Below are positions 13,233 to 41,576 of a stretch of 64,000 nt of DNA, piece after piece. This DNA is from Terracidiphilus sp. (lineage in GTDB: Bacteria > Acidobacteriota > Terriglobia > Terriglobales > Acidobacteriaceae), in NCBI GenBank assembly GCA_052147235.1, contig JBKQLG010000313.1:82-64081 (forward strand), written 5' to 3'. The notes beneath the pieces are model-generated. The model ran no database searches and was not told the origin of the DNA. It saw nothing but the letters and a program-made list of their open reading frames with translations. The first letter of the stretch is position 1. Each line of letters begins with the position of its first letter. The position numbers and the translations under genes are program-made.

Positions 13233-13290
13233 GGTTTTCTGCTTTCCAATCTGTCTTGCTGATTGACGAATTCGCTCAGTCGTAACACTG

Positions 13291-20543: not shown

Positions 20544-20670
20544 CTGCTGACCAGCGTCCTTGAATTCGCGCTCAGCCCGGTGCGGCTGCCCGGCTGTTCA
20601 TAATCGGACAGTACATTCCAGAAACGGCCACTCCCGCGCACGTTTTCAGCTTATATTCTTCGATAAGTAA

Positions 20671-20695
20671 ATTGTTTTCAATAAGTTAAAACAAT
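20671..20695. promoter_or_regulatory. perfect 8-bp inverted repeat in an AT-rich tract just upstream of the sigma-54 element
   Basis: ATTGTTTT (20671-20678), a 9 nt spacer, then AAAACAAT (20688-20695). It lies inside the only strongly AT-rich stretch of this intergenic region. Confidence 0.4.
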
Positions 20696-20697
20696 CA

Positions 20698-21999
20698 ATG
20701 TCTGGCACGGCAATTGCTGTCACTCAGGGTATGGATATCGCTCGCCCAGACTTGTTGCTCAAGAAGAAGCGCCGCCTTGCGGCCTATATCGCCGCCGCGC
20801 TGGTTGTCCTGGCGGTGGGAGTGGTCGTTGTGATGCGGCTCAAGCCGGCTGCGCCTACGGTGGATCGCTCGACCATCTGGCCGGACACGGTCAAGAGGGG
20901 TCCAATGATCCGCCAGGTGCGCGGATCGACCGGCAGCCTTGTGCCGCGCGAGGACTCGATCGAGCTCATTCCCGCGCAGACCGACGCCACCGTCGTTCGT
21001 ATCCGCGTCTTGCCCGGCGCCAAGGTCACTCCGGATACCATCCTGATGGACTTGGCAGACCCGCAACTCGAGCAACAGCTTCTCAGCGCGCAGTTAGCGC
21101 TGAGGGGCGCACAGGCCGACTACAAGAGTCTTCAGGCTACGCTCGAAAGCACATTGATGGACAAAAAAACCGCCGCCGCGCAGATCAATGCCGCCTATAC
21201 CCAGGACCAGTTGCAGGCGAAGACCGACAAGGCTCTCTATGACCTTGGCGTGATTGCCGGCATTGCCTATAGCAATTCAAAGAATACAGCCGACCAATTG
21301 ACCGCTCAGCACAAGCTCAGCCAGGAGCAGCTCGACGTCAACCAGAAGGCGATCGAGGTCCAGCTCGCTTCCCAACAAACGAAAATCGACCAGGCCAAGG
21401 CCCAGCTCGACCTCTATCAGAAGCAGTCGGCGGCGCTTCAGGTCAGGGCTGGGATCTCCGGCGTTCTCGCACAGCTTCCCATTCCGTTGCAGGTGGGACA
21501 GCACGTCACCGCGGGAACCTCGGTGGCTCAAGTGATTCAGCTTGACAAACTCAAGGCCGCTCTTCAGATCGCCGAGACCCAGGCGCGCGACATCCAGATC
21601 GGCCAACCCGCCTCCATTGACACCCACAACGGCATCATTCCCGGTCACGTGATCCGAATCGATCCTTCTGTGCTGAACGGAACGGTCACCGTAGACGTAG
21701 CACTGGATGGACCTTTGCCGCCGGGCGCGCGTCCCGCCCTGAGCGTGGACGGAACCATCGATCTGGAGCGCATGACCGACGTGCTCTACGTGGGCCGGCC
21801 TGCGCTGGGCAACGAGAACTCGACACTCAGCCTCTTTAAGATCGACCCCGATGGCAAGGGCGCGACGCGCGTTCCGGTCAAGGTGGGCCGCGCCTCGGTC
21901 AACAGCATTCAAGTGCTCGAAGGATTGAAGGAGGGTGACACCGTGATTCTCTCCGATATGTCGCGCTGGGACAATGTGGATCGCATCAGCCTGGAATAA
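20698..21999 (+). CDS. HlyD/MacA-type periplasmic adaptor (membrane fusion protein)
   Basis: N-terminal anchor (KKKRRLAAYIAAALVVLAVGVVVV), a long coiled-coil hairpin (QLEQQLLSAQLALRGAQADYKSLQ...) and beta-barrel/lipoyl-like segments. If the sigma-54 element is functional, the real start is the ATG at 20731 (MDIARPDLL...). Confidence 0.85.
   Translation: MSGTAIAVTQGMDIARPDLLLKKKRRLAAYIAAALVVLAVGVVVVMRLKPAAPTVDRSTIWPDTVKRGPMIRQVRGSTGSLVPREDSIELIPAQTDATVVRIRVLPGAKVTPDTILMDLADPQLEQQLLSAQLALRGAQADYKSLQATLESTLMDKKTAAAQINAAYTQDQLQAKTDKALYDLGVIAGIAYSNSKNTADQLTAQHKLSQEQLDVNQKAIEVQLASQQTKIDQAKAQLDLYQKQSAALQVRAGISGVLAQLPIPLQVGQHVTAGTSVAQVIQLDKLKAALQIAETQARDIQIGQPASIDTHNGIIPGHVIRIDPSVLNGTVTVDVALDGPLPPGARPALSVDGTIDLERMTDVLYVGRPALGNENSTLSLFKIDPDGKGATRVPVKVGRASVNSIQVLEGLKEGDTVILSDMSRWDNVDRISLE
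20703..20718 (+). promoter_or_regulatory. sigma-54 (RpoN) -24/-12 promoter at the head of the efflux operon
   Basis: TGGCAC (20703-20708), GGCAA, then TTGCT (20714-20718), an exact match to TGGCAC-N5-TTGCW. It was the only exact match among the TGGCAC/GTGCCA sites I checked by eye. A sigma-54 enhancer-binding regulator is encoded at the 3' end of the same gene train. Confidence 0.6.
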
Positions 22000-22027
22000 C
22001 AGGGACCAGGGACCAGGGACTAGGGAC
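22000..22027 (+). repeat. tandem heptamer repeat (CAGGGAC x3 + TAGGGAC) forming a G3-N4-G3-N4-G3-N4-G3 motif
   Basis: Read directly: CAGGGAC CAGGGAC CAGGGAC TAGGGAC, immediately after the adaptor stop codon (21997-21999) and on the sense strand of the operon. Confidence 0.9.
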
Positions 22028-22067
22028 TATGAAACAGGGAATAACAATCATTTGGAAAGGAGATGAA

Positions 22068-22745
22068 ATGAACAAGAACCGCAGAAATTTTCTTTGCATG
22101 GCCGCAGCCGGCAGCGCATTGTGCGCAACCGGGACCGCCACCGCCTTCTCCGCGCCCAGCAGCGATTCCGGCTTGCTCGACCTCTTTGCAAAACGGCAGT
22201 CGGTGCGGCGCTACAAATCCGACCCAGTTCCGGAGGAGCATCTACGACAGATTCTCGACGCGGCGCGCCGTCCTCCCACCTCGGGCAATCAGCAGCCGTG
22301 GAAGTTCCTGGTCGTCCGAAACAAGGCCACCATCGAGCGTTTACGCGCGCGTAGCCTGCAAGTGTATGAATCGAATTGGCCCAAGGATTTGTCTCCTGTG
22401 GAAAAGGCATCGCGCACAGAACAAGCCACAAAACATTTGGCCGGCTACTTCTCCGCTCCACTCTTCATCGTCGTGCTTACCGATTCGCAATCCATGTATC
22501 CCTCTTACAACCATCACGACGGCCCCTTGGCGGCGGGCTATTTGTGTCTGGCGGCGCGGGCGCTTGGTTATGGAACGGTCTATGTGACCGACGCAATCCC
22601 AGAACAGGCCACGCGAGAAGTGCTGAGTATTCCCGAACGCTACGAGCGCGTCTGCATCACGCCGCTCGGCATCCCCGACGGATGGCCCGAACCGATGCCG
22701 AAGAAGAAGTTTGAGGAATTTGTCGTCTTCGAATCGTTTGCATAG
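22068..22745 (+). CDS. nitroreductase-family flavoprotein with a twin-arginine (Tat) signal peptide
   Basis: The ATG at 22068 follows AAGGAG. MNKNRRNFLCMAAAGSALCATGTATAFSA looks like a Tat signal. The nitroreductase core is RQSVRRYKSDPVPEEHLRQILDAARRPPTSGNQQPWKFLVV. Confidence 0.8.
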   Translation: MNKNRRNFLCMAAAGSALCATGTATAFSAPSSDSGLLDLFAKRQSVRRYKSDPVPEEHLRQILDAARRPPTSGNQQPWKFLVVRNKATIERLRARSLQVYESNWPKDLSPVEKASRTEQATKHLAGYFSAPLFIVVLTDSQSMYPSYNHHDGPLAAGYLCLAARALGYGTVYVTDAIPEQATREVLSIPERYERVCITPLGIPDGWPEPMPKKKFEEFVVFESFA

Positions 22746-22838
22746 GAGTAGATGAGCTTTGCAGCCAGGAGATCGAGTCCCATGCAAAGCGAAAATGGCA
22801 ACCTGTCTGACCACGAACCACGAAATAGGAGAGAGCAA

Positions 22839-23561
<723 letters not shown>

Positions 23562-23563: not shown

Positions 23564-26008
23564 TTGTTGCTCCAAAGCACATTTCAGGACTTGCGTTATG
23601 CGTTACGCCAGTTGCGCAAGTCGCCGGGCTTCGCTGCGCTGGTAGTGGGTACGCTGGCCTTGGGCATCGCGGCCAATAGCACTGTCTTCAGTTGGATCAA
23701 CTCAACGCTCTTCAATCCCATTCCCGGTGTTCGTGGCACGGGAAAGATGATCACGCTCCAGCGCGGAGAGAGGAGCGAGCACGCGACCCCGCCCTTCTCT
23801 TACCTGGATTATGTGGACCTGCGCGATGGCTCAAAAACTCTGACCGGTTTGCTTGCCTATCACGATGACTTCGTGGCCATCACCGGCGACGGAAGGCCGC
23901 AGCGCATTTACGCAGCGCTGACCTCCGCGAATTATTTTGAGGTGCTGGGCATCAAGCCCATTCTCGGAAGAACCCTTTTTTCTTCGCAGGCAAACGAACG
24001 CGCCGGCTCAGCGGATGCTGTGCTGGGCTACGATTTGTGGCAGAGCCGTTTTTCCGGCGATCCGGCCATCGTCGGCAAGACGATGCAGATCAACCTTCAC
24101 ACCTACACCATTGTGGGCGTTGTGCCGCGCGGCTTTCAGGGATGCAAAAGCGGACTCCGCACCGAGCTTTGGATTCCTTTGGGCATGGACCGCCAGATCT
24201 GGGGATCGTCGCGCATCGGCGACCGCGGCGTCTCCTGGCTCAATGTGCTGGGCGTGATGCGCCCCGGCATTGACCACCGTCAAGTGGAAAATGAATTCAA
24301 TCTGATGATGCAGCGCATTGCCGATGCCTACCCGGTTTCACATCAAGGCAACAACCTGATTAGCACCGACCCGCTCTGGCGCTCGCCCTTCGGCGCCAAC
24401 GTTTACCTCTATGGAACCTTGTCGATCTTGGTCGCCCTGGCGGCCGTGTTATTGCTGCTGGCCTGCGCCAACGTGGCGAACCTGCTTCTTGTGCACTCGG
24501 TCTCGCGCCGCCGCGAATACGCCATTCGCCTTTCGATGGGTGCAAAGCGCTGGAGGCTGGTCCGCCAGCTTATGGTTGAAAATCTCCTGCTCGCCATGGC
24601 CGGTGGCGGCGTTGCTCTGGCAATCACCTTCTGGACGGCCCGTTCACTGGGTTATTTCCTGACTGGCTCCTCGCTTCCCATCAGTATCAATGGTAGTGTC
24701 GATGGGACTGTCACGCTGGTCACATTCCTCGTTGCCGCGCTCACATCCGTTGTGGCGGGCGTGGTTCCGGCGCTGCGTGCCTCCGCTCTGTCTCCGGCGA
24801 CGGTGCTCAAGGATGAGGCGCTCAACACCTCCGGCGGCCTGCACAAATCGCGCCTTGCCTCCGGACTCGTAGTCCTGCAGGTTGCACTCTCGCTGACCCT
24901 GCTGGTTTGCGCCGGATTGTTCGTCCGCAGCCTCAACAAGGCCCAGGATTCCAATCTGGGCTTCGATGCCAATCATGTCTACTTGGCCTCATTCGATCTC
25001 GATCCGCTGGGATACACCGATGCCAAGGCGCTTGAGCTCGACCGCCAGATTTTGGCGCGTGTCAAGGCGCTGCCCGGCGTTGAATCCGCGACTCTGGCCG
25101 ACTTTTCGCCCCTCAGTTTCAGCATCCACTCCGAGGGTGTAATGCCCGAAGGCTACATTCCCCGTCCGCATGAATCCATAGAAGCGGACCGGGGAATCGT
25201 GGGACCCGGCTATCTTGAAACTCTTCGAACTCCTCTGATTGCAGGGCGCGACTTCACCGATGCGGACAATGAATCGACGCAGCCCGTGGCCATCGTCAAT
25301 CAGGCCTTTGTCAATCGCTACTGGCCGGGCCAGGATGCTATCGGCAAGCGCGTTCAGATTGCCGGCCAGTGGCGCACCGTTGCGGGCATGGCCGCAAACG
25401 GCAAATACCGGCGTCTGACTTACGATGCGGCGCCCCTTGTGCTTGTGCCACTGGCGCAGCGTTACGAGGATCTGCTGACTCTCCATGTGCGTGTCATTGG
25501 CAATCCGACGGCGTACGCCTCATCCATTGACCAGGCGGTCCACGACCTCAGCCCCGAACTTCCCTTGTTCAACGTCACCACTCTCAAGAACAATATGCGG
25601 ATCGGCAATGTTTTTGAGCGCATCGTCGTAGTCTTCGCTGGTTCCTTTGGGCTGCTGGCCTTGTTTCTGGCCGCAGTTGGAATCTATGGAGTGGTTTCCT
25701 ACTCGACCAGGCAGCGCACGCACGAGATCGGCATTCGCATGGCTTTGGGCGCTGCGCGTGGCGACGTCTTCCGCCAGATATTGCGCCAGGGGCTGCGACT
25801 TACCCTGATTGGCCTCACCGCCGGAATCGCCGTCTCGCTGGCCTTTACCCGTTTGCTGCGCGGCCTCCTCTTTGGCGTAGGATCTGCCGACTGGATCACC
25901 TTTGCATCCGTCTCGATTTTGCTCTCTGTCGTCGCGCTGCTGGCTTGCTACGTCCCCGCCCGCCGCGCCGCATCCATTGAACCCATGCAGGCCTTGCGCG
26001 CCGAGTGA
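23564..26008 (+). CDS. ADOP-family duplicated FtsX/MacB-type permease (paralog 1 of 6)
   Basis: 814 aa. N-terminal [19 protein letters not shown] hallmark, two large extracytoplasmic domains each followed by FtsX-type helices, and a C-terminal [17 protein letters not shown] tag. TTG start 2 nt after the NBD1 stop. Confidence 0.9.
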
Positions 26009-26034
26009 TTCTTAATAGTCAAGGAGAGAGAACG

Positions 26035-28482
26035 ATGAACACGCTGCTTCATGACCTTCGCTACGCGCTGCGCCAGTTGCGTAAGTCGCCCGGCTTCACG
26101 CTGACCGCGGTCGTCACGTTGGCTTTGGGCATCGGCGCAAACACCGCGATCTTCACCGTCGTCAATGCAGTTCTGCTCAAGCCGCTCGCGTATCCGGACG
26201 CGGATCGCATCGTACAGATCAGCACCACCTACTCCGGCGGCAGTACTTCCGTCGCTTCCATCCCCAAATTTCACAACTGGCATCAGCAGACCAGCATCTT
26301 TAAAGATATGGCCGCCTACGATTTCGCCGGTCCCGGCTTCAACCTCACCGGCGACCGCCCGGAGCAGGTCCACGGCCTCCACGTAACCGAGGGATACTTC
26401 CGCCTCTTCGGCGCTCCCGTCATGCTGGGCCGCACCTTCACTCCACAAGAGGATCTGCCCAACGGCGGCAACGTGGTGGTGTTGAGCTATGGCTTGTGGC
26501 AGCGCAATTTCGGCGGCGATCCAAAGATCGTCGGCAGTTCACTCTCGCTCGGCAATGAGCCTTATACGATCGTCGGAGTTTTGGCGAAGTCCTTCCAATC
26601 CGATCCCGAGGCGGAGATCTGGCTGCCCTTCCAATTCGAGCCCAACAGCACCAATCAGGGCGACTATTTTGAGGTTGCGGGAATGCTCAAGCCCGGCATC
26701 ACGCTGGCCCAGGCAAACGCGCAAATGAAACTAGCTGCCCAGCAGTTCCACCGGGACTGGCCAGCCCGCTCAGAGAAATTCAACGTCGAGCCTCTGCGCG
26801 ACACCATCGTCGGCAATGTGCGCGCCTCGCTGCTTGTTCTGCTTGGCGCGGTGGGCCTGGTGCTTCTCATCGCCTGCGCCAATGTCGCCAACCTACTGCT
26901 CGCCCGCGCCACGGGACGCAAACGCGAGTTCGCCATCCGCTCCGCCCTTGGCGCAGGCCGCGCGCGCATTCTCCGGCAACTGCTCACTGAAAGCGTCCTG
27001 CTTTCCGTCGCGGGAGGCGTGCTTGGCCTCATCCTCGGCTACGAAGGTCTCCGCGCCTTACTCGCCGTCAGTCCTGCCGGCCTTCCTCGCATTGGTGAAA
27101 ATGGCGCCGCGGTGGGGATCGATTGGCGCGTTCTCACGTTTATACTCGCCGTATCGCTCTTCACCGGCATTCTCTTTGGTCTCTTTCCCGCCTTGAATAC
27201 CTCGCGCCTCGATCCCAATTCCGCATTGAAGGAGACAAGCAACCGTTCCGGCACGGGATTCCGACAGAGCAAGGCTCGCTCGCTGCTGGTCATCAGCGAA
27301 GTTTCTCTTGCCATGGTGCTGCTCATCGGCTCCGCGCTGCTGATCCGCACATTCATCGCCCTGCGCGCGGTCAATCCCGGCTGCGATCCCCACAACGTGC
27401 TCACGCTCCAAATGTCGCTCACCGGCGACCGCTATCAGAAGACGGCGGGCGTAGCTCAGCTCTCGCGCGATGGCCGCGAACGCCTCAATTCCATCCCTGG
27501 CGTCGAAGCCTCCGCCTCCGCCTGCTGCCTGCCGCTCGGAGGCGCCTTCACTCTGCCCTTCACTATTGTTGGGCGGCCGCTCGGCAAGGAGACGCAAACC
27601 GGTTTCGCCGGCTGGATGAATGCCTCGCCGGGCTACTTCAACGTCTTCAAGACTCCCATTCTGCGAGGCCGCGACTTAACCGATAGTGATGTTGCCGGCG
27701 CGCCCGGCGTAGTCCTCATCAACCAGGCCATGGCGAAACAGCTCTGGCCCAACCAGAACCCGGTGGGACAGCAAATGATCCTCGGCAAGGGCTTGGGTCC
27801 TCAGTTTGATGAGCCCGCGCGCCAGATCGTAGGCGTTGTTGGAGATATCCACGACGGCGGCCTCAATCGCGATCCGCGCCCCATGATGATTATTCCCGAA
27901 GCCCAGGTGACCGATGGAATGACAGCGATGAATAGCAGCATGGGTCCGGTTGATTGGATCGTGCGCACCCACGGCGATCCGCATCGGCTTATCGCCGCCG
28001 TCACCGAACATTTGCGCCTGGCCAGCGGCGGATTTCCGGTGGCGCACGTTCGGCTCATGGACGAAATCGTAGTCCTCTCTACCGCCCGCGACAGCTTCAA
28101 TATGCTTCTGCTCGCCATCTTCGGCGCTGTTGCGCTAGTTCTGGCCGCCATCGGCATCTACGGCCTCATGGCCTACTCTGTCGAGCAGCGCAAACAGGAG
28201 ATGGGCATCCGCCTGGCTCTCGGCGCGGACCGCAACACGATTCGAAACCTCGTCGTCTGGCATGGCATGAGGCTGGCCATCGCGGGAGCATTTCTGGGTA
28301 TCGGCGCGGCCTTCGGACTCACCCGCCTGATTGCCAGCTTCCTCTTCGGCGTCAAGCCATGGGATCCGATCGTCTTTTGCACGGTGCCGGTGATTCTGAC
28401 CGTCGTGGCCCTGCTTGCCGTATGGCTCCCCGCAACCCGAGCCTCCAGGCTCGATCCCATGCAAGCACTGCGCGCCGAGTGA
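26035..28482 (+). CDS. ADOP-family duplicated FtsX/MacB-type permease (paralog 2)
   Basis: The start [27 protein letters not shown] follows AGGAGAGAG. Same two-module architecture. C-terminus [16 protein letters not shown]. Confidence 0.9.
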
Positions 28483-28508
28483 TTCTCAACATTTGAGGAG
28501 AGAGAACG

Positions 28509-31067
28509 ATGAACACGCTGCTTCAGGACATCCGTTACGCGCTGCGCCAGTTGCGCAAGTCGCCGGGATTCACGCTGACTGTAGTGCTTACGCTGGGGCT
28601 GGGCATCGGCGCCAACACGGCCATCTTCACGCTGATTCACGGCATTCTGCTGCGTTCGCTCCCGGTCGCTAATCCCGCGCAACTCTACCGCATCGGCGAC
28701 ACGAACAACTGCTGCGTGGACACCGGATTCCAGAACAGCAATGGCGACTTCTCGATTTTTTCTTACGACCTCTATCTCTATCTGAAGAACGCAGCACCGG
28801 AGTTCGAGCAACTAGCCGCCGTGGAGGCGGGCATGGGAAGCTATAGCGTGCGCCGCGGAGAAGCGCCGGCGAACTCTTTGCGCGGCGAGTTCGTCTCCGG
28901 CAACTACTTCGCCACGCTGGGCCTGGGCGCATACGCGGGGCGCGTCATCGGCGAAAGCGACGACCGGTCTGGCGCAGCGCCAGTCGCGGTGCTCAGCTAT
29001 CGCGCGTGGCAAACCGAGTTCGGCGGCGATCCGTCGATTGTCGGCACCACCCTATCCATCCAAAGCAAACCGTTCACGATCGCCGGCATCGCGCCGCCAG
29101 GCTTCTACGGCGACCGTCTCGAGGCTTCGCCCCCGGCTCTCTGGATGCCGCTCTCCACCGAGCCTCTTGTTCACGGCGGCGAGGAGACGGCGATTCTGCA
29201 TCGCGCCGACTCGAACTGGCTTTATCCGCTGGGGCGCGTGCGCCCGGGTACGAACATCGTCGCTTTGCAGAGCAAGCTTTCGACGGTATTGCGCCAGTGG
29301 CTGATTACGCGTCCGGAATATACCGAAAACGGCCAGTCGGTGGAGATTCCCAAACAGCACGTGGTATTCGAAGCTGCCGGCGGAGGAATTCAGACGATGC
29401 AGCGGAATGCCGGCAATGCGCTCAGGATATTGATGATACTGGCCTCGGTTGTTCTGCTGATTGCCTGCGCGAACGTGGCCAATCTGATGCTGGCGCGGAG
29501 CGCCGGGCGGCGTGGCGAAATTGCCGTGCGCGTGGCTCTGGGCGCTGGCCGGCGCCGCGTCATGCGCCAGATTGTCACCGAGAGCATCCTGCTGAGTTGC
29601 ATGGGCGGCCTGGCCGGATTGGCCGTCGCCTATGGCGGTGCGCGCCTGATCCTGGCCCTCGCATATTCCGGTGCAAAGGATTGGCCCATCAGCTCCAGTC
29701 CGTCGCTGCCGGTTCTGGGTTTCGCGTTCCTGGTGTCGTTGCTGACAGGCCTGCTCTTCGGCTTGGCGCCGGCGGTGATCTCATCCCGCGCACAGCCGGC
29801 CGATGTACTGCGAGGCACGAACCGCGGCGACGGCTCCGCGCGTGACCGCTCCCTGCTGCCGCAGAAATCGCTCGTTGTGCTACAGGCCGCGCTCTCGCTG
29901 GCGCTGCTGGCTGTGGCCATGCTCGTCACCCGTTCGCTGATCAACCTCGAACGGCAGGACCTCGGAGTTGCCACGGCGAATCGCTATGTCTTCGAGATGG
30001 ACCCGTCCGGCGCTGGGTACACCCTCGACCGGCTGCCTGCACTCGATCGCCAGATCGAGGATCGCTTCTCGGCACTGCCCGGCGTGGAGAACGTTGGGTA
30101 TGCCCTTTACAGCCCTCTCTATGATATGTGGGGTTCTCTAGTGGTTCCGCAGGGACATTCCGCTCCCAGGCGGCACGCCGGCTTCGTATCCGCGTGGAAC
30201 CGCGCCAGCACGCATCTTCTCGACTCCATTGGCGTCCCCATCGTGCACGGCCGCGGATTCACCAGCCAGGATACAGCCGCTTCTCCTTTGGTTGCGATCG
30301 TGAATGAGGCTTTCGCCAGGAAGTTCTTCCCGAACCAGGATCCGATTGGCAAGCGCTTCGGCCTCGACGATCCGCGCTACTCGAGCAGTTTTGAGATTAT
30401 CGGCGTCTTCCGCGACTTCAAGACCAACCCGCGCGATACAGCAGGTCCGGTGTTTCTGCGCCCCTTCTCGCAGCAATTCACCGGATACAAGGAATCGGGA
30501 AACATCTCCGCGGAGAATCGCTCCGAGTTTGCCGGAGCGATGGTGATCAGCTTCAAACGCCCGGAGCCGAACGCCGAGACGCTGGTCCGCCGTACCATGG
30601 CCGGCATCGATCCCAACCTGACCGTCACCGGTTTCCGCACGATGCAGATGCAGGTGGATGACAACTATGGAATGTACCGATTGATGGCCCGGCTCACCGG
30701 AATCTTTGGCGTTCTGGCGTTGATGCTAGCCTCGGTCGGTCTCTACGGCGTAATGTCCTACTTCGTCGCCCGTCGCACCGGCGAGATCGGCATTCGCATG
30801 GCGCTGGGCGCAACCCGCGCCAGCGTGGTCAGCATGGTGATGCGCGGCGCGCTCTGGCAAGTTCTCATCGGCTTGGCGTTGGGCCTTCCGGCGGCAATTC
30901 TGGCCGGCCGCCTGCTCGCCAGCGAACTCTATGAAGTAAGCGCCTACGATCCGCTGGTGCTGATCGGCGACACATTGCTGCTCGGGCTTTGCGCTGCCGC
31001 GGCCGGCTACATCCCAGCCCGCCGCGCCGCTTCCATTGAACCTATGCAGGCATTGCGCTCTGAATAG
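28509..31067 (+). CDS. ADOP-family duplicated FtsX/MacB-type permease (paralog 3)
   Basis: 852 aa. [24 protein letters not shown]... C-terminus [17 protein letters not shown]. Confidence 0.9.
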   Translation: MNTLLQDIRYALRQLRKSPGFTLTVVLTLGLGIGANTAIFTLIHGILLRSLPVANPAQLYRIGDTNNCCVDTGFQNSNGDFSIFSYDLYLYLKNAAPEFEQLAAVEAGMGSYSVRRGEAPANSLRGEFVSGNYFATLGLGAYAGRVIGESDDRSGAAPVAVLSYRAWQTEFGGDPSIVGTTLSIQSKPFTIAGIAPPGFYGDRLEASPPALWMPLSTEPLVHGGEETAILHRADSNWLYPLGRVRPGTNIVALQSKLSTVLRQWLITRPEYTENGQSVEIPKQHVVFEAAGGGIQTMQRNAGNALRILMILASVVLLIACANVANLMLARSAGRRGEIAVRVALGAGRRRVMRQIVTESILLSCMGGLAGLAVAYGGARLILALAYSGAKDWPISSSPSLPVLGFAFLVSLLTGLLFGLAPAVISSRAQPADVLRGTNRGDGSARDRSLLPQKSLVVLQAALSLALLAVAMLVTRSLINLERQDLGVATANRYVFEMDPSGAGYTLDRLPALDRQIEDRFSALPGVENVGYALYSPLYDMWGSLVVPQGHSAPRRHAGFVSAWNRASTHLLDSIGVPIVHGRGFTSQDTAASPLVAIVNEAFARKFFPNQDPIGKRFGLDDPRYSSSFEIIGVFRDFKTNPRDTAGPVFLRPFSQQFTGYKESGNISAENRSEFAGAMVISFKRPEPNAETLVRRTMAGIDPNLTVTGFRTMQMQVDDNYGMYRLMARLTGIFGVLALMLASVGLYGVMSYFVARRTGEIGIRMALGATRASVVSMVMRGALWQVLIGLALGLPAAILAGRLLASELYEVSAYDPLVLIGDTLLLGLCAAAAGYIPARRAASIEPMQALRSE

Positions 31068-31095
31068 ACTATTCGCACCTCCGAGGAGAAGAGGA

Positions 31096-33618
31096 ATGAA
31101 CACACTGCTTCAGGACATCCGTTACGCGCTGCGCCAGTTGCGTAAGTCGCCCGGCTTCACGCTGACCGTGATCGTCACGCTGGCGCTGGGCATCGGCGCA
31201 AACGCAGCCGTCTTCACGCTCTTCGATCGTGTGCTGCTGCGCATGTTGCCCGTCGAGCGGCCGAAAGAGCTGGTGCGCTTCGAGTGGAGCGGCGGCTTCT
31301 CCGGTTCCATGAGCAGCTTCGGCGGCGATACCGACAACTATTTCTCTTATCCCATGTACAAGGACCTGCGCGACCAGAGCCAGGTTTTTCAAGGCGTGCT
31401 GGCCGCGGACAAAACCAATGTCGGCGTCAGTTGGCGCAACCAGGCCGAAAGTCAGGACGCCGAAGTCGTCACCGGTAACTACTTCCAGCTTCTAGGCCTC
31501 AAGCCCGCCGTGGGCCGCTTGCTCACCCAGCAGGATGACACCGCAAAGAACGCCAACTCTGTCGCGGTCCTCAGCTATAACTACTGGCGTACACGCTTCG
31601 GCGCTGCGCGCGACATTGTAGGCCAAACGGTGCTCATCAATGGCCACTCCTTCACCATCCTCGGCGTGGCGCCGGAGAACTTCGACTCCGCCATCGGCGG
31701 ATACAAGCCCGGCCTCTTCATCCCCATCAGCATGGTCGAGATCGCGATGCCGTGGATGGCGCCGCGCGATAACCTGAACCGTCACGATTCCGTCTGGCTC
31801 ACGCTGGTGGCGCGCCTCAAGCCCGGCGTGTCCATCCGGCAGGCAGAGGCCAGCCTCGGTCCGCTCTGGCATTCGCTGCGGGCGTATGAATTGACTCTTT
31901 ATAAAGGGAGATCGGAACGCTTCAAGAAAAATTTCCTCGACAATTCGAGCCTTAAAGTCTTCGACGACTCCAAGGGATTCTCCCCCAACCGCACGGACCT
32001 GCAGACGCCCCTCATCATCCTTATGAGCATGGCCGGATTGCTGGTAGCCATGTGCGCCATCAACGTGGCCACACTGCTGCTGCTGCGCGCCGCGGGCCGG
32101 GCGCGCGAAATGTCCATGCGCTACGCACTCGGCGCAAAGCGCAGCCGCATCGTTTCGCAGTTGCTAGTCGAAGGCGGACTACTCGGCATCGCCGGCGCGG
32201 CGGCGGGGCTTACGCTTGCGCCGATGGTTGCCACCACTCTCGTTCGCTTGATGACCAGCGCCGATCCAGGCAGCGAGCCATACTCAGCTTCCATCGATGC
32301 GCGCGTGCTGCTGTTCACGCTGGCGATTTCAGTGGTGGTGAGCCTGCTGTTCAGCATTGCGCCGGTCTTTCACTTTCTACGTCCCGATCTGGCCAATGCG
32401 CTGCGCCAGAACGCAGGCACCGCATCGAAGAACACACAGCGCTTCCGCAAAGTCGCCGTGGGCGCGCAGATTGCGCTCAGTGTGATCTTGCTGGGCGGCG
32501 CGGGCCTGTTCGTGCGCACGCTAGATAATCTCCGCCATCAGGATGTCGGCTTCCAGACTTCAAGTCTGGCCGTCTTCTCTCTCGATCCCACCATCTCCGG
32601 CTACGGCGATGACCGCACGGCGCAGATCGTCACCAATGCGCTTGAGGCGCTGCGCCGTATTCCCGGCGTCGTTACCGTTGCCGCCACCACCGACCCCGAG
32701 CTTTCAGGCGATACGAACAGTTCCCACTTCTCCGTGCAGGGCTATAAACCTTCGGAAGAAGAGAACATGAACTTCGAGGAGCCTTGGATCACTCCCGGCT
32801 ACTTTGCCACGCTGCGGCAGCCGCTTCTGGTAGGCAGGGAATTCAACGCTTCAGATGCGAAAGGTCAACCCAGTGTCGCCGTCGTCAATCTGGCCTTCGC
32901 CAAGCGATTTTTCGGCTCGCCGCAGAATGCGCTGGGCCGCGCCATCGTCGAGGGTGGCGGCAGCGACGGTAAATTCGATACGACCATTGTCGGTGTCGTC
33001 GGCGACATCAAACATGCCGATCTGCGCACGGAGATTGGCCCCGCGGTCTACGAGCCCTATCTACAGCGAAAGCATCCAGGCGGAGTCGAGGTTTACGCGC
33101 GCGCCGCGCAAGCGCCCCAGGCAGTTGAAGCCGCAATTCGCCAGGCCATTCATCAACTTGACCCCACGCTGGTTGTCGATAGCCTGCGCACCATGGAGCA
33201 GCAAGTGGACCGCATCTCTTCCGATGAACGCGCACTGGCCTTTCTCGCCATCGGCTTCTCCGCGCTGGCGATGCTGCTGGCCGCCGTCGGCCTCTACGGC
33301 GTGCTGGCCTACTCCACCGAGCAGCGCACGCGCGAGATCGGTGTACGGTTGGCGCTGGGCGCGCAACGGTCGAATGTCGTCGTGCTGATCGTCCGCGAGA
33401 TGGCCATCATTGCGGCCTTCGCCACGGCGATTGCGCTGCCTTCCATTGTTGCCCTGGCACGCCTCTTCCGCAGCCAGTTGTACGGCGTCACCAACTTTGA
33501 TCCGATTACATTGTCAGTAACAGTTACTCTCACCGCGGTAATGGCAGTGCTGGCCGCCGCACTGCCCGCCCGCCGCGCCGCGACCATTGAACCCATACAG
33601 GCACTACGCACTGAGTAG
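31096..33618 (+). CDS. ADOP-family duplicated FtsX/MacB-type permease (paralog 4)
   Basis: The ATG at 31096 follows [37 protein letters not shown]... C-terminus PARRAATIEPIQALRTE. Confidence 0.9.
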   Translation: MNTLLQDIRYALRQLRKSPGFTLTVIVTLALGIGANAAVFTLFDRVLLRMLPVERPKELVRFEWSGGFSGSMSSFGGDTDNYFSYPMYKDLRDQSQVFQGVLAADKTNVGVSWRNQAESQDAEVVTGNYFQLLGLKPAVGRLLTQQDDTAKNANSVAVLSYNYWRTRFGAARDIVGQTVLINGHSFTILGVAPENFDSAIGGYKPGLFIPISMVEIAMPWMAPRDNLNRHDSVWLTLVARLKPGVSIRQAEASLGPLWHSLRAYELTLYKGRSERFKKNFLDNSSLKVFDDSKGFSPNRTDLQTPLIILMSMAGLLVAMCAINVATLLLLRAAGRAREMSMRYALGAKRSRIVSQLLVEGGLLGIAGAAAGLTLAPMVATTLVRLMTSADPGSEPYSASIDARVLLFTLAISVVVSLLFSIAPVFHFLRPDLANALRQNAGTASKNTQRFRKVAVGAQIALSVILLGGAGLFVRTLDNLRHQDVGFQTSSLAVFSLDPTISGYGDDRTAQIVTNALEALRRIPGVVTVAATTDPELSGDTNSSHFSVQGYKPSEEENMNFEEPWITPGYFATLRQPLLVGREFNASDAKGQPSVAVVNLAFAKRFFGSPQNALGRAIVEGGGSDGKFDTTIVGVVGDIKHADLRTEIGPAVYEPYLQRKHPGGVEVYARAAQAPQAVEAAIRQAIHQLDPTLVVDSLRTMEQQVDRISSDERALAFLAIGFSALAMLLAAVGLYGVLAYSTEQRTREIGVRLALGAQRSNVVVLIVREMAIIAAFATAIALPSIVALARLFRSQLYGVTNFDPITLSVTVTLTAVMAVLAAALPARRAATIEPIQALRTE

Positions 33619-33630
33619 GAAAGGAAACAA

Positions 33631-36057
33631 GTGATGCAGACGATCTTGCAAAACCTCCGCTACGCGCTGCGCCAGTTGCATAAGTCGCCGGTTTTCACTC
33701 TGACCGCGGTGCTCACGCTGGCGCTCGGCATCGGCGCCAACACCGCTATATTCACGGCGGTTTACGCCACGCTGCTGGCGCCCATGCCCTATCCCCAGCC
33801 CGACCAGCTCGTCATGGTCTGGTCCAAGATTCAGGGCTTTCACAACGGCATTGCGGCGCAGGACTTTGTTGACTGGAAGGATCAGAGCAAGTCTTTTCAG
33901 GACCTGAATGCATGGACTGGCGGCAGTTTCAATCTGGCCACCAAGGATCAGCCGGAGTATGTCGAAGGCCAGGCCACCACGCCAGGCTTCTACAAGATGA
34001 TGGGCGTCAAGTTTCTGTACGGGCGCGACTTTCTCCCCGAAGAAGGCGTGGCAGGCAGGGAACGCGTCGTGGTCCTGGTCAACAAGCTTTGGAAGCGCCT
34101 GGGCTCCGATCCAAAGATCATCGGCAAGCAAATCCAGATTGATGGCGCACCCTATACCGTGGTCGGAGTCATGGCTCCGGGCCAGCCCGATCGCCTCGAT
34201 CAGAATTTGATTGTGCCGCTTGTCTTCAAGCCAGAACAGTTGAATCACGACTTCCATTGGCTGCTGGCCATGGGCCGCTTGAAGCCCGGCGTCACCATCA
34301 AACAGGCACAGGCCGACATGGATACGGTCACCGCCAACATCGCACAGGCCTTTCCCAAAAGCAACAAGGGATGGGGCGCGTTCGTGGAGCCGCTGAAGAA
34401 TGACTTTCTGCCAAAAGAGCGTATCCAGACCCTGTGGATGCTGCTCGGCGCGGTGGGCTTTGTGCTTTTGATCGCCTGCGTGAATGTGGCCAACCTGCTG
34501 CTCTCCAAGGGAACCACACGCCACAAAGAAGTGGCCGTGCGCATCTCTCTTGGCGCTTCGCGCGCCAACATCTTTGCCCAGTTCCTGACGGAGAACCTCG
34601 TCCTGGCGCTCATCGGCGGCCTTCTCGGAGTTGGCGTGGGCGCGCTCTGCTTGCGCGGCCTCATCGCCATCATGCCTGCCGGCACGCTTCCATCCGAGGC
34701 TGACCTCAGCCTGAATCTGCCTATCCTGTTATTCTCGCTCGCCGCTTCCACTCTTGCAGGGTTGCTCTTCGGCTGCCTTCCCGCGTGGTACGCCACGCGC
34801 ATCGATCCCGGCGAAGCACTCAAGGAGGGCGGACGCGCTTCATCAGGCTCCGGCCGCCATCGCCTGCGCAAGGTATTGGTCATCGGCGAGTTCGCGCTGG
34901 CGCTTACGCTGCTCACCGGCGCGGGCTTGGCCATCCATAGCTTCTGGAATCTCACCCGCGTCGATCTCGGATTGAACACCCATCATGTGTACACCTTTTT
35001 CCTGCCCGTGCCCGACGCGCGCTCCAAGGATCCCGCACAGATCGCCGCCTACTACCAGCGAATGATCGAAAGCATCAAGTCGGTCCCGGGCGTCCTGGAT
35101 GTGTCGACAGGCACTGGCTTGCCACTCCACGGCATGGGATTTGGAATGCCCTTTACTATCGCCGGCCAACCCGACTTCGCCGACCCCTCGCAGCGGCCCG
35201 CCGCGGGCTTCGGGATGGTTACGCCTGGATACTTCAAAACCTTTGGCATTCAGGTCATCCGTGGCCGATCGTTCACTGACCAGGACAACGCAGCCAGCAT
35301 ACGCGTGGCCATGGTCAACGAAAACTTCGCGCAAAAGTACTTCAAGGACAAAGACCCACTTCAACAACGGCTCATCGTCGAAGAACTGATTCCCGGCGTC
35401 ACCAAGCTGGGCGCGCCCGTCTCCTGGCAGATCGTGGGTGTCTATCACAATGTGCGCAGCCGTGGCCTCCGCCAGGACAATCCGGAGATCGCCATTCCCT
35501 TTTGGCAAATCCCCTGGCCCAGCGCCAACATCGGAGTGCGCACCGCGGGCGACCCCGCACTGATGACCAAGAGCATCGCGGCGGCGGTCCATGCTGTCGA
35601 TCCGCAGATCGCGCTGGCTCAGCCAAGGACGATGGATGAAATTAAGAGCGACATACTCTCCGGCGATCGTTTCACCATGGTGCTCTACTTCAGCTTTGCC
35701 GTGCTGGCACTGCTGCTTGCCGCCGTCGGCATCTATGGCGTGATGGCCTTTACCGTGGCCCAGCGCGAACACGAGATTGGACTGCGCATGGCCCTCGGAG
35801 CCAGCCGCAACAACGTCGTCTCCCTGATTCTCAAGGAAGCCATACTCCTGGCGCTTCTCGGTCTCGGCCTGGGCCTGATCGGCGCTTTCTTCGTGGGCCG
35901 CGCCATGCACAGCACGCTCTACGGCATTGCCTCTATCGACTTTGCCGCCGTTTCCGTTGTCTCATTCGTTCTGCTGAGTGTGGCTTTGCTGGCCAGTTGG
36001 CTGCCTGCTCGCCGCGCCGCATCCGTCGAACCCATGCAGTCTTTGAGAGGCGAATAG
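33631..36057 (+). CDS. ADOP-family duplicated FtsX/MacB-type permease (paralog 5)
   Basis: GTG 33631 or ATG 33634. [24 protein letters not shown]... C-terminus PARRAASVEPMQSLRGE. Confidence 0.9.
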   Translation: MMQTILQNLRYALRQLHKSPVFTLTAVLTLALGIGANTAIFTAVYATLLAPMPYPQPDQLVMVWSKIQGFHNGIAAQDFVDWKDQSKSFQDLNAWTGGSFNLATKDQPEYVEGQATTPGFYKMMGVKFLYGRDFLPEEGVAGRERVVVLVNKLWKRLGSDPKIIGKQIQIDGAPYTVVGVMAPGQPDRLDQNLIVPLVFKPEQLNHDFHWLLAMGRLKPGVTIKQAQADMDTVTANIAQAFPKSNKGWGAFVEPLKNDFLPKERIQTLWMLLGAVGFVLLIACVNVANLLLSKGTTRHKEVAVRISLGASRANIFAQFLTENLVLALIGGLLGVGVGALCLRGLIAIMPAGTLPSEADLSLNLPILLFSLAASTLAGLLFGCLPAWYATRIDPGEALKEGGRASSGSGRHRLRKVLVIGEFALALTLLTGAGLAIHSFWNLTRVDLGLNTHHVYTFFLPVPDARSKDPAQIAAYYQRMIESIKSVPGVLDVSTGTGLPLHGMGFGMPFTIAGQPDFADPSQRPAAGFGMVTPGYFKTFGIQVIRGRSFTDQDNAASIRVAMVNENFAQKYFKDKDPLQQRLIVEELIPGVTKLGAPVSWQIVGVYHNVRSRGLRQDNPEIAIPFWQIPWPSANIGVRTAGDPALMTKSIAAAVHAVDPQIALAQPRTMDEIKSDILSGDRFTMVLYFSFAVLALLLAAVGIYGVMAFTVAQREHEIGLRMALGASRNNVVSLILKEAILLALLGLGLGLIGAFFVGRAMHSTLYGIASIDFAAVSVVSFVLLSVALLASWLPARRAASVEPMQSLRGE

Positions 36058-36074
36058 CAGAAAGGAACTGAATC

Positions 36075-38547: not shown

Positions 38548-39252
38548 ATGATCGAACTGAAAAACGTAGAACGCAGTTACCAGACCGGACCCACGGAAAC
38601 CTGGGTGCTGCGCCGCATCGGAATCACCATTCGCGAAGGCGAGTTCGTCACCGTGATGGGCCCGTCGGGCGCGGGGAAGTCGTCGCTGCTGAACATTCTT
38701 GCGCTGCTCGACGACGGCTGGAAGGGCGAATACTGGTTCGGCGAAACCGCCGCGCACAAGCTCAATCGCAAGCAGCGCGCCGATCTCGCCCGCCAGCGCA
38801 TCGGCATGGTCTTCCAGAGCTATCACCTGCTGGACGACCTGACCGTCGCCGAGAACATCGACCTGCCGCTCTCCTACAAGAACCTGCCCGCCAAAGAACG
38901 GCAGGGGATGGTGGCCGACATTCTCGACCGCTTCCAGATCGTCGCCAAGAAGGATTTGTTTCCCTCGCAGCTCTCCGGCGGGCAGCAGCAACTGGTGGGC
39001 ATTGCGCGCGCCGTGGTCCACGCGCCCGCGCTGCTGCTGGCCGACGAGCCAACCGGCAACCTGCACTCCACGCAGGCGCGCGAGATCATGAATCTCTTTT
39101 GCGAACTCAACCGCGCCGGTACGACGATTGTGCAGGTGACACATTCGGATGTGAACGCACGCTATGGCAAACGCATCATCGAGCTGCGCGACGGATGGCT
39201 CACGCGCGATGAAATGCTTCAGCCAGGAGCAACGGAGGCAGGCGCAAAGTGA
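38548..39252 (+). CDS. MacB/LolD-type ABC transporter ATP-binding protein (NBD 2, with deviant signature-flank and D-loop residues)
   Basis: Walker A GPSGAGKSS, Q-loop IGMVFQSYHL, signature LSGGQQQLVGIARAV (Leu where NBD1 has Arg), Walker B LLLADEPTGNLH (His where NBD1 has Asp), H-loop VTHS. Starts 4 nt after permease 6. Confidence 0.9.
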   Translation: MIELKNVERSYQTGPTETWVLRRIGITIREGEFVTVMGPSGAGKSSLLNILALLDDGWKGEYWFGETAAHKLNRKQRADLARQRIGMVFQSYHLLDDLTVAENIDLPLSYKNLPAKERQGMVADILDRFQIVAKKDLFPSQLSGGQQQLVGIARAVVHAPALLLADEPTGNLHSTQAREIMNLFCELNRAGTTIVQVTHSDVNARYGKRIIELRDGWLTRDEMLQPGATEAGAK

Positions 39253-41332: not shown

Positions 41333-41515
41333 ATGCACGCCTCGACACAACCAGTATTGCATCGCGCCGCCGCGCCGATCGTTGCAGCCGCTGGGTTCAC
41401 GGGCGAAGACTGCCGCATCGGTCGCCGGTACGCAACCGGCTCGCTGCTCCAGGCGCACGGAATCTCGATTGCCGACGCCAAATCATGCGTAGTGGAGGCA
41501 GACCATCACGAGTAA
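41333..41515 (+). CDS. possible small ORF (60 aa) between the TolC-like and regulator genes
   Basis: The ATG follows GGAGAGGGA, and third codon positions are mostly G/C. I found no recognisable family. It may equally be non-coding leader. Confidence 0.25.
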   Translation: MHASTQPVLHRAAAPIVAAAGFTGEDCRIGRRYATGSLLQAHGISIADAKSCVVEADHHE

Positions 41516-41576
41516 GCTAGAGCCAATTCGCGTTCTGGTTGCCGACGATCAGCCGCATATTCTGGAGGCCGTCGAA

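What the first reader, a model, noticed from the sequence alone, without database searches (positions are those of the whole stretch)
20671..20735. Perfect sigma-54 promoter heads the efflux operon and its cognate-type activator sits at the tail; this implies a near-leaderless first gene
Seen in sequence:
- TGGCACGGCAATTGCT lies at 20703-20718 and is an exact TGGCAC-N5-TTGCW.
- All other TGGCAC/GTGCCA sites I checked by eye lack a correctly spaced TTGC.
- It is preceded by an AT-rich tract containing an 8-bp perfect inverted repeat (20671-20695).
- The element lies inside the ORF-track version of the adaptor gene (ATG 20698). The next in-frame ATG is 20731.

Established knowledge: sigma-54 promoters need an AAA+ enhancer-binding protein, and one (41577-42872) is the penultimate gene of the train. 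Transcription starts about 11-12 nt downstream of the -12 GC.

Inference: the operon would be positively autoregulated through its own two-component system. With a start site near 20729, the adaptor mRNA would begin only ~2 nt before the ATG at 20731, making it leaderless or near-leaderless.

Caveat: ten specified bases are expected by chance roughly 0.1 times in 128 kb of two-strand sequence. That makes a chance hit exactly here unlikely but not impossible.
Basis: partly seen in the sequence, partly recalled or inferred. Interest (0 to 1): 0.65.

Follow-up and report, generated by a model that had tools for sequence, protein, structure and literature searches.

The report
Conserved sigma-54 promoter abutting a start codon
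A textbook sigma-54 promoter, with its own upstream activator-binding site, sits so close to the first gene of a large efflux-pump operon in peat-soil Acidobacteria that the mRNA should begin only 1-5 bases before the start codon, and this layout is kept in more than 75 species.

Summary
TGGCACGGCAATTGCT lies at 20703-20718 and is the only exact TGGCAC-N5-TTGCW in the window (0.08 expected).

It is not chance. In the window and all 74 species-level relatives with usable upstream sequence (Terracidiphilus/Acidobacteriaceae), a TGG-N9-TGC motif lies at the same place. Five more distant operons have it too. Its -12 C is 13-17 nt (mode 15) from the conserved start codon ATG 20731 (MDIARPD...). The DNA around it is scrambled.

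Coding periodicity starts exactly at that ATG. No Shine-Dalgarno precedes it in 69 of 75 sequences, although downstream genes have strong ones. The leader is therefore predicted to be 1-5 nt.

The real upstream elements are:
- a 16-bp palindrome TGTYCG-N4-CGRACA (window 20595-20610), always about 110 nt upstream of the -24 GG;
- a degenerate second site 21 bp further on;
- an A/T-rich block.

An NtrC-type activator with an invariant GAFTDA loop and its kinase follow the outer-membrane gene in 71 of 71 informative loci.

Metatranscriptome contigs mostly start at or just inside the ORF, but three libraries have contigs spanning the promoter. The start site is still unmapped.

Verdict: a real sigma-54/enhancer module, probably giving a leaderless mRNA.

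The parts
20595..20610 (.). Candidate enhancer (UAS) site 1. It is the 16-bp palindrome TGTTCATAATCGGACA. The family consensus is TGTYCG-N4-CGRACA, a form of TGT-N10-ACA. Its centre is about -127 from the predicted start site.
   Evidence: It matches 12 of 12 specified bases in 70 of 75 sequences and 11 of 12 in 4, the window among them. Its first T lies 108-113 nt upstream of the -24 GG in 70 of 75. The one variable pair varies independently on the two sides (C.A 30, C.G 23, T.A 12, T.G 8). That fits a protein-binding DNA site, not an RNA hairpin. It is the only hit with one mismatch or fewer in the window.
20620..20632 (+). Second conserved block, AGAAACGGCCACT (family consensus GGAAnCGGTCAC). 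It reads as the right half of a degenerate second palindrome about 21 bp, two helical turns, downstream of site 1.
   Evidence: Seen in the conservation profile anchored on site 1 and in the anchored sequences. The reading as a second binding site is inference.
20665..20681 (.). Conserved A/T-rich block AAGTAAATTGTTTTCAA (consensus AAGnnnTTTRTTTTCAA), centred about -56. It is a candidate bending or IHF-like site.
   Evidence: The information peak lies at -39 to -24 from the -24 GG in 75 sequences. A match to the E. coli IHF consensus with one mismatch or fewer occurs in 28 of 75 sequences against 1 of 75 shuffled, mostly on the minus strand. The right arm, 20688-20695, is not conserved.
20703..20718 (+). 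Sigma-54 -24/-12 promoter TGGCACGGCAATTGCT.
   Evidence: Exact consensus, unique in the window. T-GG and T-GC are invariant in 75 of 75 sequences. It is also present in distant operons L086, L094, L149, L157 and L158.
20728..20730 (+). Predicted transcription start: G20728 or G20729, 1-3 nt before the ATG.
   Evidence: Rule: +1 lies 12 nt after the -12 C, which equals 19 bp downstream of the motif centre as used in PMC4591121. The G at -3 from the ATG is conserved in 64 of 75 sequences. The start has not been mapped.
20731..21999 (+). HlyD/MFP periplasmic adaptor, 422 aa. The true start is ATG 20731.
   Evidence: HlyD_3 and HlyD_D23 domains. Most gene calls are 422 aa. MDIARPD is invariant. 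Third-position entropy is 1.06 against 0.36 and 0.42 from the ATG on, with no periodicity upstream.
22029..22745 (+). Nitroreductase-family gene inserted between the adaptor and the ATPase. It is lineage-specific.
   Evidence: Pfam Nitroreductase. It is present only in the window and L001 among 80 loci.
22752..23561 (+). ABC ATPase 1 (MacB/DarD/LolD-like).
   Evidence: A strong SD (GAGGGGGA) precedes it in relatives.
23564..38543 (+). Six tandem ADOP-family duplicated MacB/FtsX permease genes.
   Evidence: MacB_PCD plus FtsX domains. Both permeases scanned against NCBIfam (the first and the sixth) score above the TIGR03434 ADOP cutoff: 847 and 778 bits against 622. ORF layout.
38548..39252 (+). 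ABC ATPase 2.
39249..41309 (+). TolC-like outer-membrane efflux protein (OEP).
   Evidence: Pfam OEP and TIGR01844, below its cutoff.
41505..42872 (+). NtrC-family sigma-54 activator (REC, AAA+, HTH_8) with a GAFTDA loop. The start codon is uncertain in this allele: ATC 41505 after GGAGG, or TTG 41577.
   Evidence: GAFTDA is present in 82 of 82 orthologues.
42862..44217 (+). Sensor histidine kinase (HAMP, HATPase_c).
   Evidence: It follows the EBP in the related loci.

Best explanation
The region 20595-20733 is the complete control region of a sigma-54-dependent operon. The operon encodes a MacAB-TolC-like tripartite ABC exporter built with ADOP permeases.

Proposed mechanism:
- The NtrC-type response regulator encoded at the 3' end of the operon, once phosphorylated by its kinase, binds the palindrome TGTYCG-N4-CGRACA (centre about -127) and a weaker site 21 bp downstream.
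- DNA bent at the A/T-rich block (about -56) brings the regulator to RNA polymerase-sigma-54, which is held at TGGCAC-N5-TTGC.
- ATP hydrolysis opens the promoter.
- Transcription starts at a G 1-3 nt before ATG 20731 (1-5 nt across species). The adaptor is therefore translated from a leaderless mRNA (leader of 5 nt or less) without a Shine-Dalgarno. All later genes use ordinary SD sites.
- Because the regulator genes lie in the same transcription unit, induction feeds back positively.

Shown here: the motifs, their conservation and spacing, the start codon, the lack of an SD, and the synteny.

Inferred: who binds what, the start site, the mode of translation, and the feedback.
For: - Unique exact consensus in the window.
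- 75 of 75 sequences carry TGG-N9-TGC with its first G 26-30 nt before the ATG, while the spacer and flanks vary.
- The same geometry holds in five more distant operons.
- The palindrome lies at a fixed 108-113 nt from the GG in 70 of 75 sequences and shows no RNA-type covariation.
- The start codon is fixed by invariant MDIARPD and by the onset of codon periodicity.
- An SD is absent in 69 of 75 sequences, although the organism uses GGAGG-type SDs for the other operon genes.
- Divergent ADOP genes in the same genomes have sigma-54-like promoters with normal 35-50 nt leaders and SDs, so the tight spacing is specific to this gene.
- ATPase2-OEP-EBP-HK order holds in 71 of 71 loci with upstream sequence. 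OEP and EBP abut in L081.
- No terminator-like or sigma-70-like site was found between OEP and EBP in the window.
- RNA-library contigs for two related strains begin at +1/+4, +26, +26, +29, +41 and +57 of the ORF, with zero depth over the promoter, in 6 of 12 libraries.
- GAFTDA is a natural variant listed as compatible with sigma-54 activation in Desulfovibrio (PMC4641369).
Against: - No start site has been mapped.
- Three of 12 RNA libraries have contigs spanning the promoter. X42 is continuous at flat depth, X23 starts at -91, and X67 covers -60 to +91 at low depth. Contigs from other relatives start at -17, -24 and -49. This could be read-through RNA or carried-over DNA.
- Contig ends are poor proxies for RNA ends.
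- rpoN was not looked for in this genome and is not in the window.
- The activator has GAFTDA, not GAFTGA. One paper leaves open whether that variant still contacts sigma-54 (PMC10714721).
- In the window's allele the activator frame used by the nearest relative is closed by TAG at 41490.
- A 2-5 nt leader can reduce leaderless translation in E. coli (my own knowledge).
Confidence: 0.65

Rival explanations
1. The sigma-54 promoter and enhancer are real, but the translated mRNA is not leaderless. Either a further promoter upstream, or read-through from the upstream gene, supplies a leadered transcript. Or sigma-54 polymerase starts at an unusual distance. The adaptor would then be translated by an SD-independent route on a leadered RNA.
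For: Promoter-spanning contigs occur in RNA libraries X23, X42 and X67 and for other relatives. G-rich bases at -6 to -3 could be a vestigial, too-close SD.
Against: No sigma-70-like promoter was found in 20300-21000. Nothing is conserved between the A/T block and the -24 element. The upstream genes differ between genomes, so read-through cannot be a conserved design. Six libraries show zero depth over the promoter. No well-spaced SD is present in 69 of 75 sequences.
Confidence: 0.2
2. The promoter is real, but it is driven by a different enhancer-binding protein encoded elsewhere. The tail two-component system would control something else.
For: Binding was not tested. L149 carries a second EBP, with canonical GAFTGA, just upstream of the adaptor. 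The window's tail EBP allele has an early TAG.
Against: The tail EBP-HK pair is the only regulator consistently linked to the operon, in 71 of 71 loci. Upstream neighbours vary. Whole short operons keep palindrome, promoter and tail EBP together across 59-99% adaptor identity.
Confidence: 0.1
3. The motif is a chance match, or is conserved because it is coding sequence: an N-terminal extension starting at ATG 20698.
For: About 0.08 exact matches are expected per window. The longest ORF includes the motif.
Against: The motif is present in 75 of 75 species at a fixed place. The spacing varies by 1-4 nt and so shifts the frame. No codon periodicity exists upstream. An in-frame upstream ATG exists in only 14 of 75 sequences, and the window's position is unique. 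Most gene calls are 422 aa.
Confidence: 0.01

Closest known systems
Classical enhancer-dependent sigma-54 promoters (glnAp2/NtrC, nifH/NifA with IHF)
   Same: It has a -24 GG and -12 GC with the canonical flanks, and a palindromic activator site about 100-130 bp upstream. That site fits the NifA-type pattern TGT-N10-ACA. There is a second adjacent site, an A/T-rich block in the position where IHF bends DNA, and an AAA+ activator with a Fis-type HTH.
   Different: The start codon lies at +2 to +6 instead of tens of nucleotides downstream. The activator loop is GAFTDA. The activator is not NifA or NtrC by NCBIfam cutoffs. The A/T block matches the E. coli IHF consensus only partly.
Leaderless mRNAs (leader of 5 nt or less; common in Actinobacteria, Deinococcus-Thermus and archaea)
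   Same: It has an AUG start, no SD, and a promoter element directly adjoining the ORF.
   Different: Known leaderless genes are described with sigma-70-type -10 or extended -10 elements next to the ORF (PMC12340547 title and abstract; PMC4842269). Here the adjoining element is a sigma-54 -12 box. My searches found no report of a sigma-54-driven leaderless mRNA. The predicted leader is mostly 3 nt rather than 0.
MacAB-TolC-type tripartite ABC exporters and ADOP permeases (TIGR03434)
   Same: The operon has an HlyD/MFP adaptor, a MacB-type ATPase, MacB_PCD/FtsX permeases and a TolC-like OEP. The two permeases tested (first and sixth) score above the ADOP cutoff.
   Different: There are two ATPases and zero to six or more tandem ADOP permeases per operon. 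The operon has its own sigma-54 two-component control. By my recollection, ADOP genes are usually described as orphans.

Membership tests
Sigma-54 (-24/-12) promoter | GG and GC doublets exactly 10 nt apart within TGGCAC-N5-TTGCW | tested here: met
   Exact match at 20703-20718, unique in the window.
Sigma-54 (-24/-12) promoter | Conservation of the element upstream of orthologous genes | tested here: met
   Present in 75 of 75 sequences, with the T before GG and the T before GC invariant. Also present in five distant operons.
Sigma-54 (-24/-12) promoter | An AAA+ enhancer-binding protein with a GAFTGA loop is available | tested here: inconclusive
   Sigma54_activat domain, E = 1.7e-61. The loop is GAFTDA in 82 of 82 orthologues. 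The variant is reported as tolerated (PMC4641369) and elsewhere as uncertain (PMC10714721).
Sigma-54 (-24/-12) promoter | Upstream activator sequence about 80-150 bp from the promoter | tested here: met
   Palindrome 108-113 nt upstream of the GG in 70 of 75 sequences. Binding itself was not tested.
Sigma-54 (-24/-12) promoter | rpoN present, and transcription dependent on rpoN and an EBP | not testable with these tools
   No rpoN in the window. The rest of the genome could not be searched. Genetics is needed.
Leaderless mRNA | Transcription start within 5 nt of the start codon (definition quoted in PMC12754779) | tested here: inconclusive
   Geometry predicts a 1-5 nt leader. RNA contigs begin at +1 to +57 in 6 of 12 libraries but span the promoter in 3.
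Leaderless mRNA | AUG start codon and no Shine-Dalgarno | tested here: met
   ATG in 75 of 75 sequences. No GGAG, GAGG or AGGA at -20 to -5 in 69 of 75.
NtrC-family two-component EBP | Receiver domain, sigma-54 AAA+ domain and Fis-type HTH | tested here: met
   Pfam Response_reg, Sigma54_activat, AAA_lid_14 and HTH_8.
NtrC / AtoC / ZraR / NifA equivalogs | Score above the curated NCBIfam cutoff | tested here: not met
   AtoC 363 against 714, NtrC 361 against 559, ZraR 358 against 760, NifA 312 against 529 bits.
ADOP duplicated permease (TIGR03434) | Score above the curated cutoff, with duplicated MacB_PCD/FtsX architecture | tested here: met
   The two permeases tested (first and sixth of six) score 847 and 778 bits against a cutoff of 622. 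Domain layout.
IHF binding site | WATCAANNNNTTR between enhancer and promoter | tested here: inconclusive
   One mismatch or fewer in 28 of 75 sequences against 1 of 75 shuffled. The consensus is only partly matched, and the IHF specificity of Acidobacteria is unknown.

The most novel reading that the evidence does not exclude
A whole clade of Acidobacteriaceae, at least 80 species, makes a leaderless mRNA from an enhancer-dependent sigma-54 promoter. The -12 box is kept 13-17 nt from the AUG of the first gene of an efflux operon, with a dedicated GAFTDA-loop activator. This would be the first described class of sigma-54-driven leaderless transcripts. It would tie an all-or-none promoter to SD-independent translation.
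Probability: 0.55. Interest if true: 0.6.

Novelty: new variant of a known kind. Interest (0 to 1): 0.5.

Why it matters
Sigma-54 promoters and leaderless mRNAs are both well studied, but as separate subjects. Leaderless genes are described with sigma-70-type -10 boxes next to the ORF. The phyla richest in leaderless genes lack sigma-54 (my own knowledge).

A sigma-54 -12 box held 13-17 nt from an AUG across about 80 species would show that the two can be combined. It would also give a natural system for asking how a transcript with a 1-5 nt leader, made by sigma-54 polymerase, is translated.

It also provides a complete, testable regulatory map for ADOP-type exporters in Acidobacteria: enhancer, bend, promoter and regulator. 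These are abundant peat and soil bacteria with almost no characterised promoters, and homologues of this operon's adaptor gene are seen in peat metatranscriptomes.

Tried and rejected
- **The 8-bp inverted repeat (20671-20695) as the regulator site.** Rejected: only its left arm, part of the A/T block, is conserved.
- **RNA element in the leader.** No Rfam match at E up to 1 in 20500-20800. The palindrome shows no compensatory variation.
- **Sigma-70 promoter or terminator near the site.** No sigma-70-like promoter. The single terminator-like hit lies on the minus strand inside the ORF.
- **Other copies of the palindrome in the window.** None with one mismatch or fewer. The GGAAnCGGTCA scan was uninformative.
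- **Mapping the start site from public RNA runs on the window itself.** Only divergent relatives are present and the contigs are fragmented. Laying contigs on L065, L053 and L072 gave a few promoter-overlapping contigs but no clear ends. Strain-matched runs on L056 and L039 were more useful but still use contigs, not reads.
- **Literature.** No paper was found linking sigma-54 with leaderless mRNAs, or with MacB/ADOP control in Acidobacteria. The Barrios 1999 promoter compilation is not held.
- **rpoN or IHF genes in the window.** None among the ORFs scanned.
Full report
**Observation.** The window carries TGGCACGGCAATTGCT at 20703-20718. It is the only exact TGGCAC-N5-TTGCW on either strand. 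Shuffles give 0.08 matches on average. With one mismatch allowed there are two sites, no more than chance. The 8-bp inverted repeat at 20671-20678 and 20688-20695 is real. The longest ORF starts at ATG 20698, and the next in-frame ATG is 20731.

**Gene content.** Reading from the site:
- a HlyD/MFP adaptor;
- a nitroreductase-family gene;
- a MacB-type ABC ATPase;
- six tandem permeases with MacB_PCD and FtsX domains; the two scanned against NCBIfam (first and sixth) score above the ADOP family cutoff;
- a second ATPase;
- a TolC-like outer-membrane protein;
- an NtrC-family sigma-54 activator;
- a histidine kinase.

Homologues name the organism as Terracidiphilus (Acidobacteriaceae) from peat and soil.

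**Start codon.** Most database gene calls for this adaptor are 422 aa, which corresponds to ATG 20731. In an alignment the shared sequence begins at MDIARPD, and the longer calls carry unrelated extensions. Across the window and 74 species-level genomes:
- MDIARPD is invariant apart from two Ser at residue 4;
- entropy at third codon positions is 1.06 bits, against 0.36 and 0.42 at positions 1 and 2, from the ATG onward;
- the 45 nt upstream show no periodicity (1.62-1.66 bits in all three phases);
- an in-frame upstream ATG exists in only 14 of 75 sequences, and the window's position is unique.

ATG 20731 is therefore the start codon, and the motif is non-coding.

**Conservation of the promoter.** A scan of one genome per species returned 80 loci with 77-99% adaptor identity. 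In all 75 sequences with enough upstream DNA, a GG-N10-GC lies with its first G 26-30 nt before the ATG.
- The T before GG and the T before GC were not part of the selection, yet both are invariant.
- The consensus is TTTGGCAcG-N4-aGTGCt, while the spacer and the stretch down to the ATG vary freely.
- The distance from the -12 C to the A of the ATG is 13 nt (2 sequences), 14 (5, the window among them), 15 (41), 16 (22) or 17 (5). These 1-4 nt differences change the reading frame, which again excludes a coding constraint.
- Five operons from metagenomes, with adaptors only 59-86% identical, keep the same geometry: first G 29-30 nt from the ATG.

**Upstream elements.** Only its left arm is, as part of an A/T-rich block AAGnnnTTTRTTTTCAA (window 20665-20681), 24-39 nt upstream of the GG.

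Further upstream lies a 16-bp palindrome, TGTYCG-N4-CGRACA (window 20595-20610, TGTTCATAATCGGACA).
- It matches all 12 specified bases in 70 of 75 sequences and 11 in 4.
- Its first T lies 108-113 nt from the GG in 70 of 75.
- Its only variable pair varies independently on the two sides (C.A 30, C.G 23, T.A 12, T.G 8). This is what a dimer-binding DNA site predicts, and it argues against an RNA hairpin.
- No Rfam family matches the region.

A second block, GGAAnCGGTCAC (window 20620-20632), follows. It reads as the right half of a degenerate second palindrome about 21 bp away.

With +1 taken as 12 nt after the -12 C, the centres lie near -127, -106 and -56. That is the usual layout of enhancer sites, a bend and a promoter. 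The A/T block matches the E. coli IHF consensus with one mismatch or fewer in 28 of 75 sequences, against 1 of 75 shuffled controls. The match is partial, so the IHF reading stays open.

**The activator.** The order ATPase2-OEP-EBP-HK holds in the window, in L081 and in L082. It also holds in all 71 metagenome loci that have more than about 500 nt upstream of the EBP.
- In L081 the OEP stop and the EBP start abut.
- In the window, no terminator-like or sigma-70-like site was found in the 195-nt gap.
- Short complete operons carry palindrome plus promoter at the head and the EBP-HK pair at the tail on one contig.
- Upstream neighbours differ between genomes, so this pair is the only regulator that travels with the operon.
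- All 82 orthologous EBPs have GAFTDA instead of GAFTGA. A second, unrelated EBP in L149 has GAFTGA.
- GAFTDA is listed among variants expected to keep activity in Desulfovibrio vulgaris (PMC4641369). Another study leaves its effect open (PMC10714721).

Cognate control and positive feedback are thus well supported by linkage, but they are not shown.

**Is the mRNA leaderless?**
- A published rule places the start 19 bp downstream of the motif centre (PMC4591121). That equals 12 nt after the -12 C. It gives G20729 in the window and a leader of 1-5 nt, mostly 3 nt, across species. This falls within the definition of leaderless as 5 nt or less (PMC12754779).
- A G at -3 from the ATG is conserved in 64 of 75 sequences. 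It is better conserved when the sequences are aligned on the ATG than on the promoter, which would fit a preferred initiating purine.
- No SD-type tetramer lies at -20 to -5 in 69 of 75 sequences. The ATPase gene that follows has GAGGGGGA in nearly every genome, and most other operon genes have GGAG-type sites.
- In four genomes with a divergently transcribed ADOP gene, that gene has its own sigma-54-like promoter with a 35-50 nt leader and a clear SD. Three of the four (L057, L075, L078) also have a second, partly degenerate palindrome-like copy. The tight spacing is therefore specific to the adaptor gene.

**RNA evidence.** Homologues of the adaptor gene appear in peat metatranscriptome assemblies. 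Only assembled contigs were available, not raw reads.

For the L056 strain (ATG at 3031), eight libraries were examined:

| Library | Where coverage of the ORF begins |
|---|---|
| X44 | 3031-3034 |
| X43, X45 | 3056 (adapter-joined ends in both) |
| X46 | 3059 |
| X47, X50 | further inside the gene |
| X23 | one contig starting at -91 |
| X42 | continuous at flat depth, which looks like DNA or read-through |

In X44, X45 and X46 nothing lies over the 350-480 nt upstream; in X43 a low-depth contig covers the 3' end of the upstream gene and the palindrome, and nothing lies over the last 140 nt before 3056, which include the promoter.

For the L039 strain (ATG at 4001), coverage begins at 4041 and 4057 in two libraries and at 4148 in a third. 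One library has a read-sized contig from -60 to +91 at lower depth.

Contigs of other relatives that overlap the promoter were also seen. The balance favours a 5' boundary at or just inside the ORF. It cannot exclude a minor leadered transcript.

**Comparison with what is known.** This is a standard enhancer-dependent sigma-54 system in every tested respect except two.
- The start codon lies at +2 to +6.
- The activator loop is GAFTDA.

The palindrome fits the NifA-type TGT-N10-ACA pattern. The activator, however, is not NifA, NtrC, AtoC or ZraR by curated cutoffs.

Leaderless genes are described with sigma-70-type -10 or extended -10 elements next to the ORF (PMC4842269). My searches found no report of a sigma-54-driven leaderless mRNA. 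The absence of such a report is not proof of novelty.

**Verdict.**
- The sigma-54 promoter and its enhancer are about as certain as comparative sequence analysis allows.
- The leaderless reading is probable, at roughly two in three.
- I rate it a new variant of a known kind, of moderate interest.

Noticed in passing
window 41469-41600: The activator's start is unclear in this genome. The closest relative (L082) opens the frame at TTG with ...A-S-W-R-Q. The window has TAG at 41490-41492 where L082 has TCG. No ATG, GTG or TTG follows before TTG 41577, which would cut off the first strand of the receiver domain. ATC 41505 sits 6 nt after GGAGG and aligns with the Met of more distant orthologues. 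Several close relatives are also called as truncated 422-aa proteins.
   Followed up: partly
window 42200-42220 (GAFTDA in the EBP); L081-L162: The sigma-54 contact loop is GAFTDA, not GAFTGA, in all 82 orthologous activators, including those only 67-70% identical. A second EBP in L149 has GAFTGA.
   Followed up: yes
window 22000-22028; spacer after the adaptor stop in L002-L079: The spacer after the adaptor gene holds tandem heptamers: CAGGGAC three times, then TAGGGAC, in the window. In many relatives there are arrays such as CAGTGGT/CAGTGAA or CAGGGAA/TAGGGAA, followed by arrays of the complementary heptamers (AACTGAC, CACTGAT). These could fold into a long imperfect hairpin between the first two genes.
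   Followed up: no
window 22029-22745: A nitroreductase-family gene is inserted between the adaptor and ATPase genes only in the window and its nearest relative (L001). The other loci go straight from adaptor to ATPase.
   Followed up: partly
window 23564-38543; L083-L162: The number of tandem ADOP permease genes between the two ATPase genes varies widely. It ranges from none detected (L149, L157, L158) through one or two (L086, L094, L144) to six in the window. The first permease is only about 30% identical to the window's in most genomes.
   Followed up: partly
window 41333-41515: A 60-codon ORF with a good SD lies between the OEP and the EBP and overlaps the EBP start. Its C-terminal half resembles the C-terminus of the OEP (12 of 30 identical, E = 0.003 for the single comparison), as if left by a partial duplication. 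It is also called in L082.
   Followed up: partly
L029, L057, L075, L078 (about 3550-4000, minus strand): Some genomes have a divergently transcribed ADOP permease gene upstream of the adaptor. It has its own sigma-54-like promoter and an ordinary leader with an SD. In L057, L075 and L078 there is also a second, partly degenerate palindrome-like copy. Together this suggests a shared bidirectional control region. L048, L059 and L074 instead share CTGCGTAAnGAAACTCAG before that gene.
   Followed up: partly
L039 3708-3810: A sequence of about 40 nt, roughly 250-290 nt upstream of the adaptor gene, has word depths of 1,600-15,000 in four RNA libraries and joins to many different flanks. Several of the flanks contain GGGCTTTAGCCCC-like hairpins. 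It is either a very abundant small RNA or a dispersed repeat.
   Followed up: no
window 50293-50349 (minus-strand matches): Three tandem copies of a 21-nt unit (CGGCACCTGCAGTGC core) lie inside the 5' end of the class II aminoacyl-tRNA synthetase ORF (50248-51666). They would encode a 7-residue tandem repeat.
   Followed up: no
window 56205-56220 (minus strand): This is the only other site within one mismatch of the sigma-54 consensus (TGGCTCTGATATTGCA). It lies near the 3' end of a PA14-domain ORF, about 450 nt upstream of the next minus-strand ORF.
   Followed up: no
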